DNA from: Candidatus Uhrbacteria bacterium CG10_big_fil_rev_8_21_14_0_10_50_16
Lineage (GTDB): Bacteria; Patescibacteriota; Patescibacteriia; UBA9934; UBA11717
Length of the DNA: 64,000 nt
Assembly (NCBI GenBank): GCA_002774875.1
Contig: PCYM01000005.1
Span: 1,979-65,978 of the forward strand
Direction of reading: 5' to 3'
The translations under genes and the position numbers were made by a program. Below are positions 59,944-63,187 of the stretch, one piece after another. The notes under the pieces were generated by a model, which worked only from the letters and a program-made list of their open reading frames with translations, had not been told where the DNA came from and did no database searches. The first letter of the stretch is position 1. Each line of letters opens with the position of its first letter.

Positions 59944-59944
59944 T

Positions 59945-59976
59945 AAAAACACCACCCGCGAGGGTGGTGTTTGTGA
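59945..59976 (+). terminator. Intrinsic terminator after hisS (GNRA-loop hairpin)
   Basis: caccaccc gcga gggtggtg 8-bp stem followed by tttgtg. Confidence 0.7.
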
Positions 59977-59990
59977 TAAGATTTGATTAA
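59966..59990. repeat. 25-bp direct repeat, left copy (gtggtgtttgtgataagatttgatt), flanking the rhuM cassette
   Basis: Exact 25-mer recurs at 61120-61144. Confidence 0.8.
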
Positions 59991-60034
59991 GTGTCGATGG
60001 ATCGTGAAGAATTGTTGAGGATTAAGATAAGTTT

Positions 60035-61048
60035 ATGGATAATACGGAATTGAATAACGAAATCATTATTTATACTGGCGACGGTGGTCAGCCGATTATT
60101 CAGGTACGAATTGAAGGGGAGACCGTGTGGCTTAGTCAAACGCAATTGGCAGAATTATTCGACACGACGAAACAAAACGTCAGCCTTCATATTCAGAATA
60201 TTTACGAAGAAGGCGAGTTAACAAAAGAAGCAACTGTCAAGGAATACTTGATTGTTCAAAAAGAGGGGAATAGGGAGGTTTCACGACGGATTGAACATTA
60301 TAGTCTCGATCTTATTATTTCTCTTGGCTATCGCGTTAGATCGAAGATTGCTACACATTTTCGCCAATGGGCCACGGCACGACTTCGTGAGTATATCGTG
60401 AAAGGCTTTACAATGGACGATGAACGGTTAAAAGGAAATGGCGGCGGACAGTATTGGAAAGAACTTCTTGATCGCATTCGCGATATTCGTTCCAGCGAAA
60501 AGATGCTTTATCGTCAAGTGCTTGATTTGTATGCGACGAGTATTGATTATGATCCGAAAAGTACTGAGTCAATAATATTTTTTAAAGTCGTGCAAAACAA
60601 ATTGCATTACGCGACGAACCAACACACGGCCGCAGAGACCATCCATGAACGCGCGGATGCAGAAAAAGATTTCATGGGACTTACAACGTTTGCAGGAGCA
60701 ATGCCTGTATTATCAGAAGTTGGGACGGCTAAAAATTATCTGACAGAAGATGAACTTTTCCGTTTAAATCGTCTCGTTTCAGCATTTTTTGATCTTGCAG
60801 AAATTAAAGCACAAGAGCATACAGCAATGCACATGGCCGATTGGGTTGCAGAGCTTGATAAATTTGCAGAGAACTTTGGTAAGGGTGTGCTCACCGATGC
60901 GGGTTCCGTTAGTCACGAACAAGCGAAAAAGAAAGTAGCAGTAGAATATCGTAAGTATCAGGCGAAGACCCTTTCCCCAGTTGAAGAAGCGTATTTGGAG
61001 AGTGTGAAGGCGTTAGGAAAGGAAGTGGAGAAGCGAGTAAAAAAGTAA
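60035..61048 (+). CDS. rhuM: RhuM-family (virulence-associated, Fic/DOC-neighbourhood) protein
   Basis: N-terminus IIIYTGDGGQPIIQVRIEGETVWLSQTQLAELFDTTKQNVSLHIQNIYEEGEL matches the RhuM family pattern; AT-rich gene. Confidence 0.75.
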   Translation: MDNTELNNEIIIYTGDGGQPIIQVRIEGETVWLSQTQLAELFDTTKQNVSLHIQNIYEEGELTKEATVKEYLIVQKEGNREVSRRIEHYSLDLIISLGYRVRSKIATHFRQWATARLREYIVKGFTMDDERLKGNGGGQYWKELLDRIRDIRSSEKMLYRQVLDLYATSIDYDPKSTESIIFFKVVQNKLHYATNQHTAAETIHERADAEKDFMGLTTFAGAMPVLSEVGTAKNYLTEDELFRLNRLVSAFFDLAEIKAQEHTAMHMADWVAELDKFAENFGKGVLTDAGSVSHEQAKKKVAVEYRKYQAKTLSPVEEAYLESVKALGKEVEKRVKK

Positions 61049-61119
61049 TTCGTCGGTACGTACATCGACTAATTGTTGAGCTCCACACCCCATTATTACA
61101 TTGCGTCTGGAGGGGTTGA

Positions 61120-61144
61120 GTGGTGTTTGTGATAAGATTTGATT
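61120..61144. repeat. 25-bp direct repeat, right copy
   Basis: Identical to 59966-59990; the preceding hairpin is degenerate compared with the hisS terminator. Confidence 0.8.
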
Positions 61145-61186
61145 GATGTATTTCAAAATCCTATTTTGTTCTAAGAACATTGTCCT

Positions 61187-61534
61187 ATGAAAACACTGTC
61201 AGATTTAACAACAAAGATTGTAGCTTTTAGGGATGCTCGAGATTGGAAACAGTTTCACAACCCAAAAGATTTAGCACTATCTTTAGTGTTGGAGGCCGCA
61301 GAGGTTATGGAACATTTTCAATGGAAAAATTCAGAAGAAATGGAGAAATATGTCCAAACGAATAAATCTGATATTGGTGATGAACTAGCGGATGTTTTGT
61401 ATTGGGTTTTACTAATGAGCCACGATCTCGATATTGATATTTTAGACGCACTTGAAAAGAAAATATTAAAAAATGAAGCAAAGTACCCGGTCGATAAAGC
61501 AAAAGGGCTGCACACAAAATACACGGAGCTTTAA
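61187..61534 (+). CDS. MazG-like nucleotide pyrophosphohydrolase (small, single domain)
   Basis: EVMEHFQWK...ELADVLYWVLLMSHDLDID pattern (EExxE...DxxD metal-binding helices) typical of the MazG/YpjD family. Confidence 0.7.
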   Translation: MKTLSDLTTKIVAFRDARDWKQFHNPKDLALSLVLEAAEVMEHFQWKNSEEMEKYVQTNKSDIGDELADVLYWVLLMSHDLDIDILDALEKKILKNEAKYPVDKAKGLHTKYTEL

Positions 61535-61535
61535 T

Positions 61536-63122
61536 ATGCAGGCCATAAAGACATTTGCTTTTTCTGATAGCGGCTTTGAAACAATTAAAAAAGATCATTA
61601 TGGTTTAGATTGGCCGGTTGTTTATTTTATTGAAAATGGGAAGGAGGCTTATATTGGAGAGACAATCCACCTTTATTATAGGAGCAAGGAGCATTATAAA
61701 AATAAGGAGAGACAAAGATTGCATCAAGTTCATGTTGTGACAGATGAGGAATATAACAAGTCTGCAGCACTTGATATTGAATCTTGGTTAATTCAATACA
61801 TTGCAGCAGATGGTATTTTTAAATTACAAAATGGCAATGCAGGGTTAAAGAATCATGAATATTTTGATCGGGAAAAATATTTATCAAAATTTGAGAATGG
61901 CATTTGGCCTAAGCTAGTAAAGATGGGTCTTGCGAAGAATAATCTAGTCCAATTAAAAAATAGCGACCTTTTTAAGTATTCACCTTACAAAACGTTATCT
62001 GCAGACCAAATAGCATTTGTAGAGGCTCTTGTGGATGAAATAGCTCAAGAGAAATTAACGTTTGTGGTGCGTGGAAGACCGGGGACCGGCAAGACTATCG
62101 TGGCAGTATATTTAATGAAATATTTGAAGGAAGATAGTCGCACGTCGCATCTAAAAGTGGGCTTGGTTATTCCGATGACTTCATTGCGTAAAACGTTAAA
62201 GAATGTTTTTAAAAATATTGTGGGGCTGTCACCTTCAATGGTGATTGGTCCGGCTGATACAGTAAAAGCAGAGTATGATTTGTTGTTAGTTGATGAGACG
62301 CATAGGCTGCGACGTAGAAAAAATATTACTAACTATAAGGCTTTTGATGACATAAATCGTCATTTTGGATTTGAGAATACCGGCACCGAACTAGATTGGA
62401 TTCAAGCATCTGCTATGAAACAAGTTTACTTTTATGATGAGCAGCAGAGTGTCAGACCTTCTGACATTAGACCTTCTCAAATTGCACGTCTGCAGGCAAA
62501 GGAGTTCACGTTGCAGTCTCAAATGAGAGTAAGAGGCGGAGAGAGATATCTGGCGTTTATTGATAGTTTATTTGGTGACGGAGACATTCGTTCTGTAGAT
62601 TTTCCTCAATATGATCTCAGGATGTATGAAGATATTTCTTTGATGGTAAAAGAAATAAAGGAAAAAGATGAAGCCGTGGGTCTCGCGCGTATGGTTGCTG
62701 GATACGCTTGGTCGTGGAAGACGAGGAATTTAAAACCTCACGATGAAGGATTTGATATAGAAATAGATGGGGAAAAATTGCGTTGGAATTCTACAAATGC
62801 TGATTGGGTTAACTCGGAAAATGCAGTGAACGAAGTTGGATGTATTCATACTGTACAGGGGTATGATCTCAATTATGTTGGGGTGATTATTGGTCCGGAA
62901 CTAAAATGGGTAGACGGTAAGTTTGTACTTGATAGGTCGAGCTACTTTGATAAGAATGGACATAGAGGGGTTGAAAACGAAGAGGAGATTATTGGGTATG
63001 TGTTGAATATATATAAAACCTTACTCACTCGTGGAATTATCGGTACATTTATCTATGTGGTGGATCCCGGATTACGCAATTATCTAAAAAATATTTTAAA
63101 TCAAGCCCCAAAACCTCAATAA
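61536..63122 (+). CDS. GIY-YIG nuclease domain fused to an SF1-like P-loop helicase (DUF2075-like)
   Basis: N-terminus VVYFIENGKEAYIGETIHLYYRSKEH (GIY...YIG...R..E); Walker A GRPGTGKT; Walker B LLLVDETHRL; C-terminal helicase motif CIHTVQGYDLNYVGVIIG. Confidence 0.75.
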   Translation: MQAIKTFAFSDSGFETIKKDHYGLDWPVVYFIENGKEAYIGETIHLYYRSKEHYKNKERQRLHQVHVVTDEEYNKSAALDIESWLIQYIAADGIFKLQNGNAGLKNHEYFDREKYLSKFENGIWPKLVKMGLAKNNLVQLKNSDLFKYSPYKTLSADQIAFVEALVDEIAQEKLTFVVRGRPGTGKTIVAVYLMKYLKEDSRTSHLKVGLVIPMTSLRKTLKNVFKNIVGLSPSMVIGPADTVKAEYDLLLVDETHRLRRRKNITNYKAFDDINRHFGFENTGTELDWIQASAMKQVYFYDEQQSVRPSDIRPSQIARLQAKEFTLQSQMRVRGGERYLAFIDSLFGDGDIRSVDFPQYDLRMYEDISLMVKEIKEKDEAVGLARMVAGYAWSWKTRNLKPHDEGFDIEIDGEKLRWNSTNADWVNSENAVNEVGCIHTVQGYDLNYVGVIIGPELKWVDGKFVLDRSSYFDKNGHRGVENEEEIIGYVLNIYKTLLTRGIIGTFIYVVDPGLRNYLKNILNQAPKPQ

Positions 63123-63133
63123 ACAGCCCAGGG

Positions 63134-63162
63134 TTGACGGATTTGTGGGTGTCTGTTAGAAT
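63134..63162 (+). promoter_or_regulatory. Promoter for rpsU (TTGACG-17-TAGAAT)
   Basis: Near-consensus hexamers with 17-bp spacer, 25 bp upstream of the rpsU ATG. Confidence 0.55.
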
Positions 63163-63187
63163 GCGGCTACGTTGAATCGAGAAAACT

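What the first reader, a model, noticed from the sequence alone, without database searches (positions are those of the whole stretch)
61536..63122. GIY-YIG endonuclease fused to a P-loop SF1-like helicase (DUF2075-like)
Readable motifs: VVYFIENGKEAYIGET...RSKEH (GIY/YIG/Arg/Glu of GIY-YIG nucleases); GRPGTGKT (Walker A); LLLVDETHRL (Walker B, DExx-like); CIHTVQGYDLNYVGV (SF1 motif VI-like). Such fusions act on foreign DNA in known systems. Here it is the terminal gene of an AT-rich islet, after a MazG-like enzyme. That pairing of nucleotide depletion with a nuclease/helicase could be functionally coupled.
Basis: partly seen in the sequence, partly recalled or inferred. Interest (0 to 1): 0.6.

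Follow-up and report, generated by a model that had tools for sequence, protein, structure and literature searches.

The report
Nuclease-helicase with dCTPase partner gene
The gene really encodes a DNA-cutting domain fused to a Schlafen-type helicase, and in 82 of 83 related loci examined it lies next to a small dCTP-pyrophosphatase-like gene, so the pair looks like an undescribed, horizontally moving two-gene unit, most likely for defence against foreign DNA.

Summary
Observation confirmed. Window 61536-63122 (+) encodes a 528-aa protein. Its N-terminal domain has a GIY-YIG fold with all catalytic residues invariant. The rest is an SF1B helicase core (Pfam PF09848/DUF2075/Schlafen group 3, E 3.5e-60).

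82 of 83 homologous loci carry it adjacent on the same strand (81 upstream, usually 0-5 nt apart; the 83rd cannot be assessed). These loci come from Patescibacteria and MAGs labelled Bacteroidetes, Gammaproteobacteria and Clostridia. The pairing also holds on Bacillus megaplasmids and a high-GC fecal scaffold. No third gene is conserved.

The partner is a DCTPP1/RS21-C6-type pyrophosphatase with every metal-binding residue conserved.

The 3.2-kb islet (GC 38.9% vs 49.4%) is an insertion into an otherwise conserved hisS-rpsU junction. Neighbours elsewhere are often restriction, toxin-antitoxin or Abi genes. No relative was found in IMG/VR viral contigs.

Closest known: Nhi/Nhi-like/AbiO nuclease-helicases. 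These use PD-(D/E)XK nucleases and are described as single proteins. The MazG partner matches no PADLOC 2023 model. No paper in the held library mentions DUF2075 together with MazG.

Verdict: new variant of a known kind. Defence function and mechanism are inferred, not shown.

The parts
61536..63122 (+). Gene for the 528-aa GIY-YIG nuclease / SF1B (DUF2075, Schlafen group 3-type) helicase, stop codon included
   Evidence: ORF. Start fixed by homologue alignment. PF09848 E 3.5e-60. AlphaFold model pLDDT 87.9. Foldseek hits to RecD2, Upf1, RecD, SLFN11, Dda, nsp13 and Dna2.
61536..61850 (+). N-terminal GIY-YIG nuclease domain (aa 1-105); catalytic set Y30, Y39, R49, H53, E82, N99
61992..63101 (+). 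Helicase core (aa 153-522): Walker A GTGKT (183-187), Walker B DETH (253-256), motif V HTVQGYD (438-444), motif VI TRG (498-500)
61187..61534 (+). Partner gene: 115-aa MazG-like all-alpha NTP pyrophosphatase of the DCTPP1/RS21-C6 type; its stop lies 1 nt before the helicase start
   Evidence: PF12643 E 2.9e-18. PDB 4qgp 1.6e-20 and DCTPP1/RS21-C6 1e-16 over the full length. E36, E39, E42, W46, E66, D69 are 100% conserved in 79 partner proteins. Adjacent in 82 of 83 loci.
61525..61528 (+). GGAG Shine-Dalgarno-like motif inside the end of the MazG-like gene, 7 nt before the helicase ATG (suggests translational coupling)
   Evidence: Read directly from the sequence.
60035..61048 (+). RhuM-family gene, first gene of the islet; probably a separate cargo gene and not part of the pair
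   Evidence: PF13310 E 1.2e-104. PADLOC candidate PDC-S05 E 2e-141. RhuM relatives occur in only 8 of the 83 genomic loci. Bracketed by a 25-nt perfect repeat.
59964..59988 (.). Left copy of the 25-nt perfect direct repeat GTGGTGTTTGTGATAAGATTTGATT; it overlaps the hisS terminator hairpin (59947-59972)
61120..61144 (.). Right copy of the same 25-nt repeat, between RhuM and the MazG-like gene
59973..63133 (.). The whole low-GC islet, inserted between the hisS terminator and the rpsU promoter (TTGACG-17-TAGAAT at 63134-63162)
   Evidence: GC 38.9% vs 49.4%. Relatives have hisS-rpsU gaps of 76-341 nt. The rpsU promoter block is conserved in relatives.

Best explanation
Window 61187-63122 is a horizontally acquired two-gene operon that works as one unit, most likely against invading DNA (phage or other mobile elements).

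Gene 2 encodes a nuclease-helicase of the Nhi type. An SF1B motor (DUF2075/Schlafen group 3 helicase fold) would use ATP to load on and translocate along DNA. The most plausible substrates are single-stranded or replicating foreign DNA. A catalytically complete GIY-YIG domain at its N-terminus would cut that DNA.

Gene 1 encodes a DCTPP1/RS21-C6-like pyrophosphatase that would hydrolyse dCTP or 5-modified dCTP to the monophosphate. This could starve replication of the invader. It could also stop modified cytosine nucleotides from being built into DNA, whether the invader's protective modification or recycled modified nucleotides entering host DNA.

Shown here: the domain architecture and fold, intact catalytic residues in both proteins, near-obligatory adjacency and tight spacing of the two genes, and their accessory, mobile, non-viral distribution.

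Inferred: the defence role, the substrates of both enzymes, any physical complex between them, and how self DNA is spared.
For: Architecture and intact active sites.

Partner enzyme: full-length similarity to DCTPP1/RS21-C6 (E 1e-16) and to 4qgp. All five acidic metal ligands and W46 are 100% conserved, and W20 97% conserved, in 79 partner proteins.

Coupling:
- A MazG-like ORF is adjacent on the same strand in 82 of 83 loci: 81 upstream, and one (L077) downstream. Gaps are typically 0-5 nt or a short overlap.
- Adjacency is kept on Bacillus cereus-group megaplasmids at 33-34% identity and on a high-GC scaffold at 39%.
- No third gene is conserved. The next most common neighbouring family occurs in 13 of 83 loci.
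- A MazG-like protein 80% identical to this one pairs with a DUF2075 protein whose N-terminus carries a PD-(D/E)XK-like motif instead of GIY-YIG (L106). The partnership therefore survives a swap of N-terminal domain.

Accessory and mobile:
- The islet has 38.9% GC against 49.4%.
- Four related contigs (L092, L094, L095, L096) keep the same flanking gene order with hisS-rpsU gaps of 76-341 nt.
- The 76%-identical homologue lies about 500 kb from hisS in its genome.

Defence-type context:
- Immediate downstream neighbours include MrcB_N-type proteins (5; two also with HNH), Mrr (3), NucS_C/YhcG_C PD-(D/E)XK-type nucleases (4 each), DNA methyltransferases, DpnI and Abi_alpha.
- Other neighbours are an AbiA-like reverse transcriptase, a PD-T4-1-like nuclease, an HpaII restriction-modification pair, and PemK, AbiEii and RhuM/Fic genes.

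Not viral: no relative in IMG/VR.

Precedent: Nhi and Nhi-like (nuclease + DUF2075) are experimentally validated anti-phage proteins (papers read).
Against: There is no experimental evidence for this family.

PADLOC's Nhi and AbiO models match only part of the protein, at about 43 and 41 bits, and the MazG-like protein matches no PADLOC model.

Many neighbours are housekeeping genes or of unknown function, and I had no background control for 'defence enrichment'.

Nothing in the sequence shows how self DNA would be spared.

A DCTPP1-type enzyme is a house-cleaning enzyme in eukaryotes, which fits a repair or sanitation role equally well.

About half of the close homologues carry a LexA/UmuD-like S24 domain. 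That points to DNA-damage (RecA) signalling and is also compatible with a repair function.
Confidence: 0.55

Rival explanations
1. An accessory DNA-repair and nucleotide-pool sanitation module. The MazG-like enzyme would remove non-canonical or damaged dCTP analogues from the pool. The GIY-YIG helicase, like UvrC or SLX1, would incise DNA at lesions or stalled forks. In the long forms the S24 domain would tie it to the SOS response.
Against: Distribution is patchy. The pair sits in a low-GC insertion that is absent from syntenic relatives. Positions differ between related genomes. Neighbours are frequently restriction, toxin-antitoxin or Abi genes. The two genes appear to reassort with each other. 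These are features of mobile conflict genes rather than repair genes.
Confidence: 0.2
2. A toxin-antitoxin-like or addiction module. The nuclease-helicase would be a toxin, and the small upstream protein would neutralise it by binding or by removing an activating nucleotide. The pair would stabilise the island or trigger abortive infection.
For: The layout is a small upstream gene tightly coupled to a larger nuclease gene. Toxin-antitoxin genes are frequent neighbours. The pair occurs on Bacillus megaplasmids beside zeta toxin and HNH genes.
Against: The small protein keeps every catalytic residue of an active pyrophosphatase at 100%, which a pure binding antitoxin would not need. It also occurs without the helicase, next to an HTH protein and a PD-T4-1-like nuclease (L105).
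Confidence: 0.12
3. A function of a mobile element itself. The helicase would serve replication or transfer of an integrative element, with the GIY-YIG domain acting as a homing or nicking endonuclease.
Against: No integrase, relaxase or replication initiator travels with the pair; only the two genes are conserved. The 25-nt repeat brackets RhuM, not the pair. There is no relative in IMG/VR viral contigs. Most plasmid copies are on megaplasmids typed as non-mobilizable.
Confidence: 0.08
4. The two genes are merely neighbours with no functional link, and the fusion protein acts alone as Nhi does.
For: More distant GIY-YIG-like DUF2075 proteins (28% identity or less) on Bacillus and Limosilactobacillus plasmids have no MazG neighbour. 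Nhi and Nhi-like are described as single proteins.
Against: Adjacency holds in 82 of 83 loci across phyla, with gaps of 0-5 nt or overlaps. It is retained at 33-39% identity and after a swap of the N-terminal domain.
Confidence: 0.03

Closest known systems
Nhi (Staphylococcus epidermidis SERP2475), Nhi-like (Millman et al. 2022) and AbiO: single-protein nuclease-helicase anti-phage systems
   Same: They have an N-terminal nuclease fused to a DUF2075 (PF09848) SF1-type helicase. PADLOC's Nhi and AbiO models hit the helicase region (E 5e-12 and 2e-11). They occur in defence-island contexts.
   Different: Their nuclease is PD-(D/E)XK, whereas here it is GIY-YIG. They are described as single proteins, whereas here a MazG-like partner is nearly obligatory. 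The PADLOC matches cover only aa 102-367 and 86-351 of 528, at about 43 and 41 bits. Half of the close relatives of this protein add a C-terminal S24 domain.
Schlafen group 3 proteins (human SLFN11, SLFN5, SLFN13, SLFN14)
   Same: The C-terminal helicase domain belongs to the same Pfam family (PF09848). SLFN11 and SLFN14 structures are among the Foldseek hits (7zel 6.7e-8, 9nyy 2e-6). Both kinds of protein are linked to conflict with foreign or stressed DNA.
   Different: No Schlafen core domain was reported by the Pfam scan, and the N-terminus here is a GIY-YIG DNA nuclease. Sequence identity is about 10-12%.
DCTPP1 / mouse RS21-C6 (dCTP pyrophosphatase 1), for the partner protein
   Same: The alignment is full-length (E 1e-16) and includes the C-terminal KYT(D/E)L. 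Residues equivalent to W47, E63, E66, E69, W73, E95 and D98 are conserved.
   Different: The protein is bacterial, 115 aa, and lacks the eukaryotic N- and C-terminal extensions. It is encoded in an operon with a nuclease-helicase. Its substrate is unknown. H38 of RS21-C6 is not conserved (I11 here; from the alignment).
Phage T4 host-DNA shut-off pair: endonuclease II (DenA, GIY-YIG) and gp56 dCTPase
   Different: The T4 genes are phage-encoded and have no helicase. The statement that gp56 is a dCTPase acting with EndoII is from my own knowledge and was not tested here. No evidence of common descent of the pairing.
Nucleotide-depletion defences (dCTP deaminase, dGTPase; Tal et al. 2022)
   Same: An enzyme that removes a dNTP from the pool is encoded in a defence context (mentioned in the paper read).
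   Different: The enzyme family is different (all-alpha MazG-like pyrophosphatase). Here it is always paired with a nuclease-helicase rather than standing alone. Depletion activity has not been shown.

Membership tests
GIY-YIG nuclease superfamily | The 'GIY' and 'YIG' tyrosines on a beta-hairpin, about 8-11 residues apart | tested here: met
   V28-V29-Y30 and Y39-I40-G41. Y30, Y39 and G41 are invariant in 120 homologues. Strands 28-33 and 37-43 form the hairpin in the model.
GIY-YIG nuclease superfamily | Catalytic Arg about 10 residues after the YIG Tyr, a downstream metal-binding Glu, and Asn | tested here: met
   R49, E82 and N99/N101 are invariant and H53 is more than 90% conserved. The spacing matches I-TevI (Y17-R27-H31...E75...N90); that comparison is from my own knowledge.
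GIY-YIG nuclease superfamily | Pfam PF01541 above its gathering score | tested here: not met
   18.6 bits against a cut-off of 22.6, E 0.0024, and only aa 29-64 are aligned. Pfam records a PF01541 hit for some relatives, e.g. P0033, and a 'faint' one in L103.
GIY-YIG nuclease superfamily | The GIY-YIG alpha/beta fold | tested here: met
GIY-YIG nuclease superfamily | Nuclease activity | not testable with these tools
   Needs biochemistry.
DUF2075 / Schlafen group 3 helicase domain (PF09848), SF1B helicases | Pfam PF09848 above its gathering score over the whole domain | tested here: met
   204.6 bits against a cut-off of 24, E 3.5e-60, profile positions 3-354 of 354.
DUF2075 / Schlafen group 3 helicase domain (PF09848), SF1B helicases | Walker A, Walker B, and motifs V and VI with the arginine finger | tested here: met
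   G183-K186, D253-E254-x-H256, H438-T439-x-Q441-G442 and R499 are invariant; T187, T498 and G500 are nearly invariant.
DUF2075 / Schlafen group 3 helicase domain (PF09848), SF1B helicases | Two-RecA-domain SF1B fold | tested here: met
   Model pLDDT 87.9. Foldseek hits: RecD2 3.5e-10, Upf1 1.5e-9, RecD 4.4e-9, SLFN11 6.7e-8, Dda 8.9e-8, Dna2 1.1e-7.
Nhi / Nhi-like / AbiO defence proteins | N-terminal PD-(D/E)XK nuclease domain | tested here: not met
   The N-terminal domain is GIY-YIG. Nhi and Nhi-like are described as PD-(D/E)XK (papers read).
Nhi / Nhi-like / AbiO defence proteins | Full-length match to the family's models | tested here: not met
   PADLOC Nhi 43.2 bits over aa 102-367 and AbiO 41.2 bits over aa 86-351. 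Only part of each model (about 230 of about 470 positions) is covered.
Nhi / Nhi-like / AbiO defence proteins | Acts as a single-gene system | tested here: not met
   A MazG-like partner is adjacent in 82 of 83 loci.
Nhi / Nhi-like / AbiO defence proteins | Protects against phage | not testable with these tools
   Needs infection assays.
MazG-like all-alpha NTP pyrophosphatases, DCTPP1/RS21-C6 branch (partner protein) | Pfam PF12643 above its gathering score, and similarity to solved DCTPP1 | tested here: met
   66.3 bits against a cut-off of 27. 4qgp 1.6e-20 and DCTPP1/RS21-C6 about 1e-16 over aa 3-115.
MazG-like all-alpha NTP pyrophosphatases, DCTPP1/RS21-C6 branch (partner protein) | ExxE...ExxD metal-binding residues and base-stacking tryptophans | tested here: met
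   E36, E39, E42, E66, D69 and W46 are 100% conserved and W20 97% conserved in 79 partner proteins, and they align with RS21-C6 E63, E66, E69, E95, D98, W73 and W47.
MazG-like all-alpha NTP pyrophosphatases, DCTPP1/RS21-C6 branch (partner protein) | Preference for dCTP or 5-modified dCTP | not testable with these tools
   Needs enzyme assays.
Schlafen proteins (membership, as opposed to a shared helicase domain) | N-terminal Schlafen core (AlbA_2-type RNase) domain | tested here: not met
   The Pfam scan reported no Schlafen-core family. The N-terminus folds as GIY-YIG.

The most novel reading that the evidence does not exclude
The pair would be a new class of two-component anti-phage system. 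A bacterial DCTPP1-type enzyme would selectively destroy the 5-modified dCTP (hydroxymethyl-, methyl- or further modified) that cytosine-modifying phages need. The phage genome would lose its protective modification, or host DNA would be kept free of it. A GIY-YIG/Schlafen-type helicase-nuclease would then degrade the replicating phage DNA. In the long forms a LexA/UmuD-like S24 domain would switch the enzyme on through RecA-ssDNA. This would make the pair a prokaryotic counterpart of two human genome-guardian proteins (DCTPP1 and SLFN11) working as one unit.
Probability: 0.15. Interest if true: 0.85.

Novelty: new variant of a known kind. Interest (0 to 1): 0.62.

Why it matters
Nuclease-helicases with a DUF2075 motor (Nhi, Nhi-like, AbiO) are proven anti-phage proteins, and they share their motor with the human Schlafen restriction factors.

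This locus shows a large, mostly uncultured branch: at least 591 hits in a collection with one genome per species, and more than 7,900 protein clusters at 90% identity. In the 86 loci of this branch examined here, the nuclease is GIY-YIG and the motor is almost always (85 loci) paired with a DCTPP1-type pyrophosphatase.

If the pair is a defence system, it would be the first to combine DNA degradation with enzymatic editing of the dCTP pool. It would also add a candidate immune module for Patescibacteria (CPR), from which most of the close relatives retrieved here come.

The Bacillus megaplasmid copies make the idea testable in a culturable host.

If the pair is instead a repair or sanitation module, it is still an unreported, strictly conserved operon.

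Tried and rejected
- Sequence search of the full protein against PDB chains gave only a P-loop match to HelD (E 0.29).
- A profile of the N-terminal domain against PDB sequences gave only a weak T4 EndoII hit (E 0.21). The fold comparison was needed to settle the GIY-YIG assignment.
- NCBIfam gave only sub-threshold P-loop hits.
- I looked for a conserved third gene by all-against-all clustering of neighbour ORFs and found none.
- PemK/MazF toxins looked recurrent (10 loci), which recalled the E. coli mazEFG operon. Their position and distance vary on both sides, so I rejected them as part of the unit.
- RhuM as a third component was rejected: it occurs in 8 of the 83 genomic loci at variable positions, and here it is bracketed by its own 25-nt repeat.
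- Phage origin was rejected. IMG/VR holds no relative. There are only 4 weak hits in GenBank phages, and the best is an 'UNVERIFIED' high-GC scaffold that looks bacterial.
- No tRNA or Rfam family lies near the islet, so there is no tRNA integration site.
- No flanking repeat brackets the whole islet.
- Literature searches for DUF2075+MazG, MazG+Nhi, Schlafen+GIY-YIG and 'dCTP pyrophosphatase'+anti-phage found nothing describing the pair. This is absence from the held library only.
- Not attempted for lack of a tool or quota: a complex prediction for the two proteins, and a background-controlled defence-enrichment statistic.
Full report
**1. What is at the coordinates**

The region holds one long ORF, 61473..63122 on the + strand. 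The finding's start, 61536, is the second ATG.

All retrieved homologues begin M-x-x-I-K-T-F, aligned with that ATG. It lies one base after the stop codon of the upstream gene (TAA at 61532-61534). A GGAG sits 7 nt upstream of it, at 61525-61528. The gene is therefore 61536-63122 and encodes 528 aa.

An identical protein is on record as 'hypothetical protein COV06_02860' of a Candidatus Uhrbacteria bacterium (CG10_big_fil_rev...). The window is therefore from a Patescibacteria (CPR) genome.

**2. Domain architecture**

*Helicase.* Pfam places aa 175-510 in PF09848 (SLFN-g3_helicase, formerly DUF2075) at E 3.5e-60. There is a ResIII hit over the P-loop region.

An AlphaFold2 model built on 120 homologues has mean pLDDT 87.9. 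By Foldseek it matches SF1B helicases:
- RecD2, 3.5e-10
- Upf1, 1.5e-9
- RecD of RecBCD, 4.4e-9
- human SLFN11, 6.7e-8
- T4 Dda, 8.9e-8
- coronavirus nsp13
- Dna2, 1.1e-7

In 120 homologues Y30, Y39, G41, R49, E82, N99 and N101 are invariant and H53 is nearly so. The spacing is that of the I-TevI and UvrC catalytic sets (my knowledge of those enzymes).

*Helicase motifs.* G183-K186, D253-E254-x-H256, H438-T439-x-Q441-G442 and R499 are invariant.

Motif VI is YKTLLTRGIIG. The catalytic Glu is E82 (LDIES), not the Glu in RSKEH.

**3. The upstream gene**

Window 61187-61534 encodes a 115-aa MazG-like protein (PF12643, E 2.9e-18).

Against PDB sequences its best matches are the pyrophosphatase 4qgp (1.6e-20) and dCTP pyrophosphatase 1 / mouse RS21-C6 (about 1e-16). 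The DCTPP1/RS21-C6 alignment is full-length and includes the C-terminal KYT(D/E)L.

In 79 partner proteins from related loci, E36, E39, E42, E66, D69 and W46 are 100% conserved and W20 is 97% conserved. They align with RS21-C6 E63, E66, E69, E95, D98, W73 and W47. This looks like an active enzyme of the DCTPP1 type, not a degenerate subunit.

**4. The two genes form a unit**

*Close relatives.* The first three homologue loci all had the MazG-like gene immediately upstream. A scan of one genome per species found at least 591 genomes with a relative, and the best 80 loci were fetched.

An HMM of the MazG-like protein finds an adjacent ORF on the same strand in 82 of the 83 loci. In 81 it lies upstream, and in L077 it lies downstream. 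The only miss (L069) has just 48 nt of upstream sequence. Gaps are typically 0-5 nt or short overlaps.

*More distant relatives.* The pairing persists in Bacillus cereus-group megaplasmids at 33-34% identity. There NCBI annotates a 'nucleotide pyrophosphohydrolase' directly upstream of the 'DUF2075 domain-containing protein'. It also persists in a high-GC fecal scaffold at 39% identity.

*No third gene.* Clustering all neighbour ORFs shows none is conserved. The next most frequent family (TspO) occurs in 13 of 83 loci.

*Searching outward from the MazG-like protein.* Many relatives are 77-83% identical, and their partners differ:
- One is followed by a GIY-YIG/DUF2075/S24 protein and an AbiA-like reverse transcriptase (L103).
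- One pairs with a 774-aa DUF2075/S24 protein that is only 28% identical to the window helicase. Its N-terminus has a PD-(D/E)XK-like motif (IDFII...IIELKQW) instead of GIY-YIG (L106).
- One is followed by an HTH protein and a NOV_C/PD-T4-1-like nuclease, with no helicase (L105).

*Evidence of reassortment.* Divergence of the two genes from the window pair is uncorrelated (r = 0.09). The closest helicase (76% identity) has a partner only 51% identical. The pyrophosphatase thus behaves as a module that reassorts among nuclease(-helicase) effectors.

*Limit of the pairing.* More distant proteins (28% identity or less) whose alignment to the query also covers the GIY-YIG region, on Bacillus and Limosilactobacillus plasmids, lack the partner. 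They sit next to McrBC, UvrD-like or type III CRISPR genes.

**5. Accessory and mobile, not core and not viral**

*Composition.* The islet 59973-63133 has 38.9% GC against 49.4% for the rest of the window. The lowest equal-sized window elsewhere has 46.4%.

*Synteny.* Metagenome contigs with HisRS 60-82% identical keep the order Der, LCP, signal peptidase, hisS, rpsU, GatB/YqeY. Their hisS-rpsU gaps are only 76-341 nt (L092, L094, L095, L096). The window has 3.2 kb there.

*Boundaries.* The left edge is the hisS terminator hairpin (59947-59972). The right edge is the conserved rpsU promoter (63134-63162).

*The related genome with the closest homologue.* The same junction there holds a different 1.6-kb insert. 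Its MazG-helicase pair lies about 500 kb away, next to RhuM, Bro-N and an HpaII restriction-modification pair.

*Neighbours across loci:*
- Immediately downstream: MrcB_N-type proteins (5 loci, two with HNH), Mrr (3), NucS_C/YhcG_C PD-(D/E)XK-type nucleases (4 each), DNA methyltransferases, DpnI and Abi_alpha.
- Immediately upstream: RhuM, Fic, NYN, NERD, AbiEii, PemK and DUF3427.
- Many other neighbours are housekeeping genes or unknown. I had no background control, so 'defence island' is a qualitative reading.

*Not viral.* No relative was found in 2.9 million IMG/VR contigs.

**6. How it most likely works**

*Shown:* an intact GIY-YIG nuclease on an intact SF1B motor; an intact DCTPP1-type pyrophosphatase; near-obligatory adjacency with spacing that suggests co-translation; and a mobile, accessory, cellular distribution.

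*Inferred, by analogy with Nhi:* Nhi is a PD-(D/E)XK + DUF2075 enzyme with nuclease and helicase activities that protects staphylococci from phage. Nhi-like is validated in Millman et al.. By that analogy, the large protein loads on foreign, probably replicating or single-stranded, DNA, translocates with ATP and cuts it.

The small enzyme most plausibly acts on dCTP or 5-modified dCTP. It could do one of three things:
- deplete the pool;
- deny a cytosine-modifying phage its modified precursor;
- keep modified nucleotides released from degraded DNA out of the host chromosome.

The last two fit two observations. [quoted passage not shown] Modification-dependent nucleases are frequent neighbours. 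Both links are circumstantial.

About half of the close homologues carry a C-terminal S24 domain. It has a UmuD-like Cys-Gly site, GDSM and a conserved Lys (comparison with UmuD and LexA from my own knowledge). This suggests RecA-ssDNA-triggered regulation in those forms. The window protein lacks that domain.

*Confidence.* I put about 0.9 on 'co-functional two-gene unit', about 0.55-0.6 on 'defence against foreign DNA', and about 0.15-0.25 on any specific substrate model.

*Rivals:*
- an accessory repair or pool-sanitation module (0.2);
- a toxin-antitoxin-like or abortive module (0.12);
- a function of a mobile element itself (0.08);
- chance neighbours (0.03).

**7. Comparison with what is known**

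It works like Nhi, Nhi-like and AbiO but fails three of their defining features. The nuclease class differs. PADLOC's models match only partially. It is not a single-gene system.

It shares only the helicase domain with Schlafen proteins.

The MazG-like protein matches no model in PADLOC-DB v2.0.0.

The held literature mentions GIY-YIG fusions to DUF2075 once, in passing (Lutz et al. 2019, PMC6765204). No paper there combines DUF2075 with MazG. That is absence from this library only, not proof of novelty.

I rate it a new variant of a known kind.

**8. Verdict**

The finding is real, and its tentative interpretation is upheld and sharpened. It is not a lone fusion protein. It is one half of a widespread, strictly conserved, horizontally mobile pair: a DCTPP1-like pyrophosphatase plus a GIY-YIG/Schlafen-type helicase-nuclease.

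Function remains to be tested. The Bacillus plasmid copies offer a practical route. Interest 0.62.

Noticed in passing
window 59964-59988 and 61120-61144: A perfect 25-nt direct repeat (GTGGTGTTTGTGATAAGATTTGATT) brackets the RhuM gene (60035-61048). The left copy overlaps the hisS terminator hairpin. RhuM looks like a cassette inserted separately from the MazG-helicase pair, with a duplicated target or attachment site.
   Followed up: partly
window 59944-63187; loci L091-L096: The hisS-rpsU intergenic junction seems to be an insertion hotspot. Relatives have gaps of 76-341 nt and the window has the 3.2-kb islet. L091 has an unrelated, GC-rich 1.6-kb insert with a 239-aa minus-strand ORF of unknown function.
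   Followed up: partly
homologues P0011, P0016, P0078, P0102, P0114; about half of loci L004-L083: A long form (about 670-680 aa) adds a C-terminal LexA/UmuD-like S24 peptidase domain. It has 'PLVGSAPCGEP' (a UmuD-like Cys-Gly cleavage site), GDSM (Ser) and a conserved Lys. This suggests RecA-ssDNA-triggered self-cleavage as a regulatory switch. The window protein is the short form.
   Followed up: partly
L106/L107 5001-7676; L105 5001-6733; L103 5001-9446: MazG-like proteins 80-83% identical to the window's pair with different effectors. These are a 774-aa DUF2075/S24 protein with a PD-(D/E)XK-like motif in its N-terminus, an HTH protein plus a NOV_C/PD-T4-1-like nuclease without a helicase, and a GIY-YIG/DUF2075/S24 protein followed by an AbiA-like reverse transcriptase.
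   Followed up: partly
loci L001-L083 compared with the window pair: Identity of the helicase and of its MazG partner to the window pair is uncorrelated (r = 0.09). The closest helicase (L001, 76%) has a partner only 51% identical, while partners of 75-82% identity go with helicases of 50-57%. This suggests recombination between the two genes, or very different evolutionary rates.
   Followed up: partly
L077 3810-5816: In one MAG (labelled Candidatus Epulonipiscium) the gene order is inverted. The MazG-like ORF lies just downstream of the helicase instead of upstream.
   Followed up: no
window 60035-61048: The RhuM-family protein matches PADLOC candidate system PDC-S05 almost end to end (E 2e-141). 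RhuM or RhuM-Fic relatives recur near the pair in 8 of the 83 genomic loci, at variable positions.
   Followed up: partly
L086 (GenBank MT836409.1, 'UNVERIFIED: Bacteriophage sp.'): This 10.6-kb fecal scaffold is high-GC. It carries a 1033-aa protein whose sequence looks to me like a PLD-type nuclease fused to an SF2 helicase (not profile-tested), followed by the MazG-like gene and a GIY-YIG/DUF2075 gene. No phage hallmark gene was evident in the part I read. It looks like a bacterial defence island rather than a phage.
   Followed up: partly
window 61473-61535: The ORF can be extended 21 codons upstream to an ATG that overlaps the MazG-like gene. Homologues show this extension is not used. 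Automatic annotation could mis-call it, as apparently happened for P0016.
   Followed up: yes
window 41099-41531: A tRNA cluster (tRNA-Leu CAA on the minus strand and two tRNA-Met CAT on the plus strand) holds the only RNA genes detected in the window. It is unrelated to the islet.
   Followed up: no
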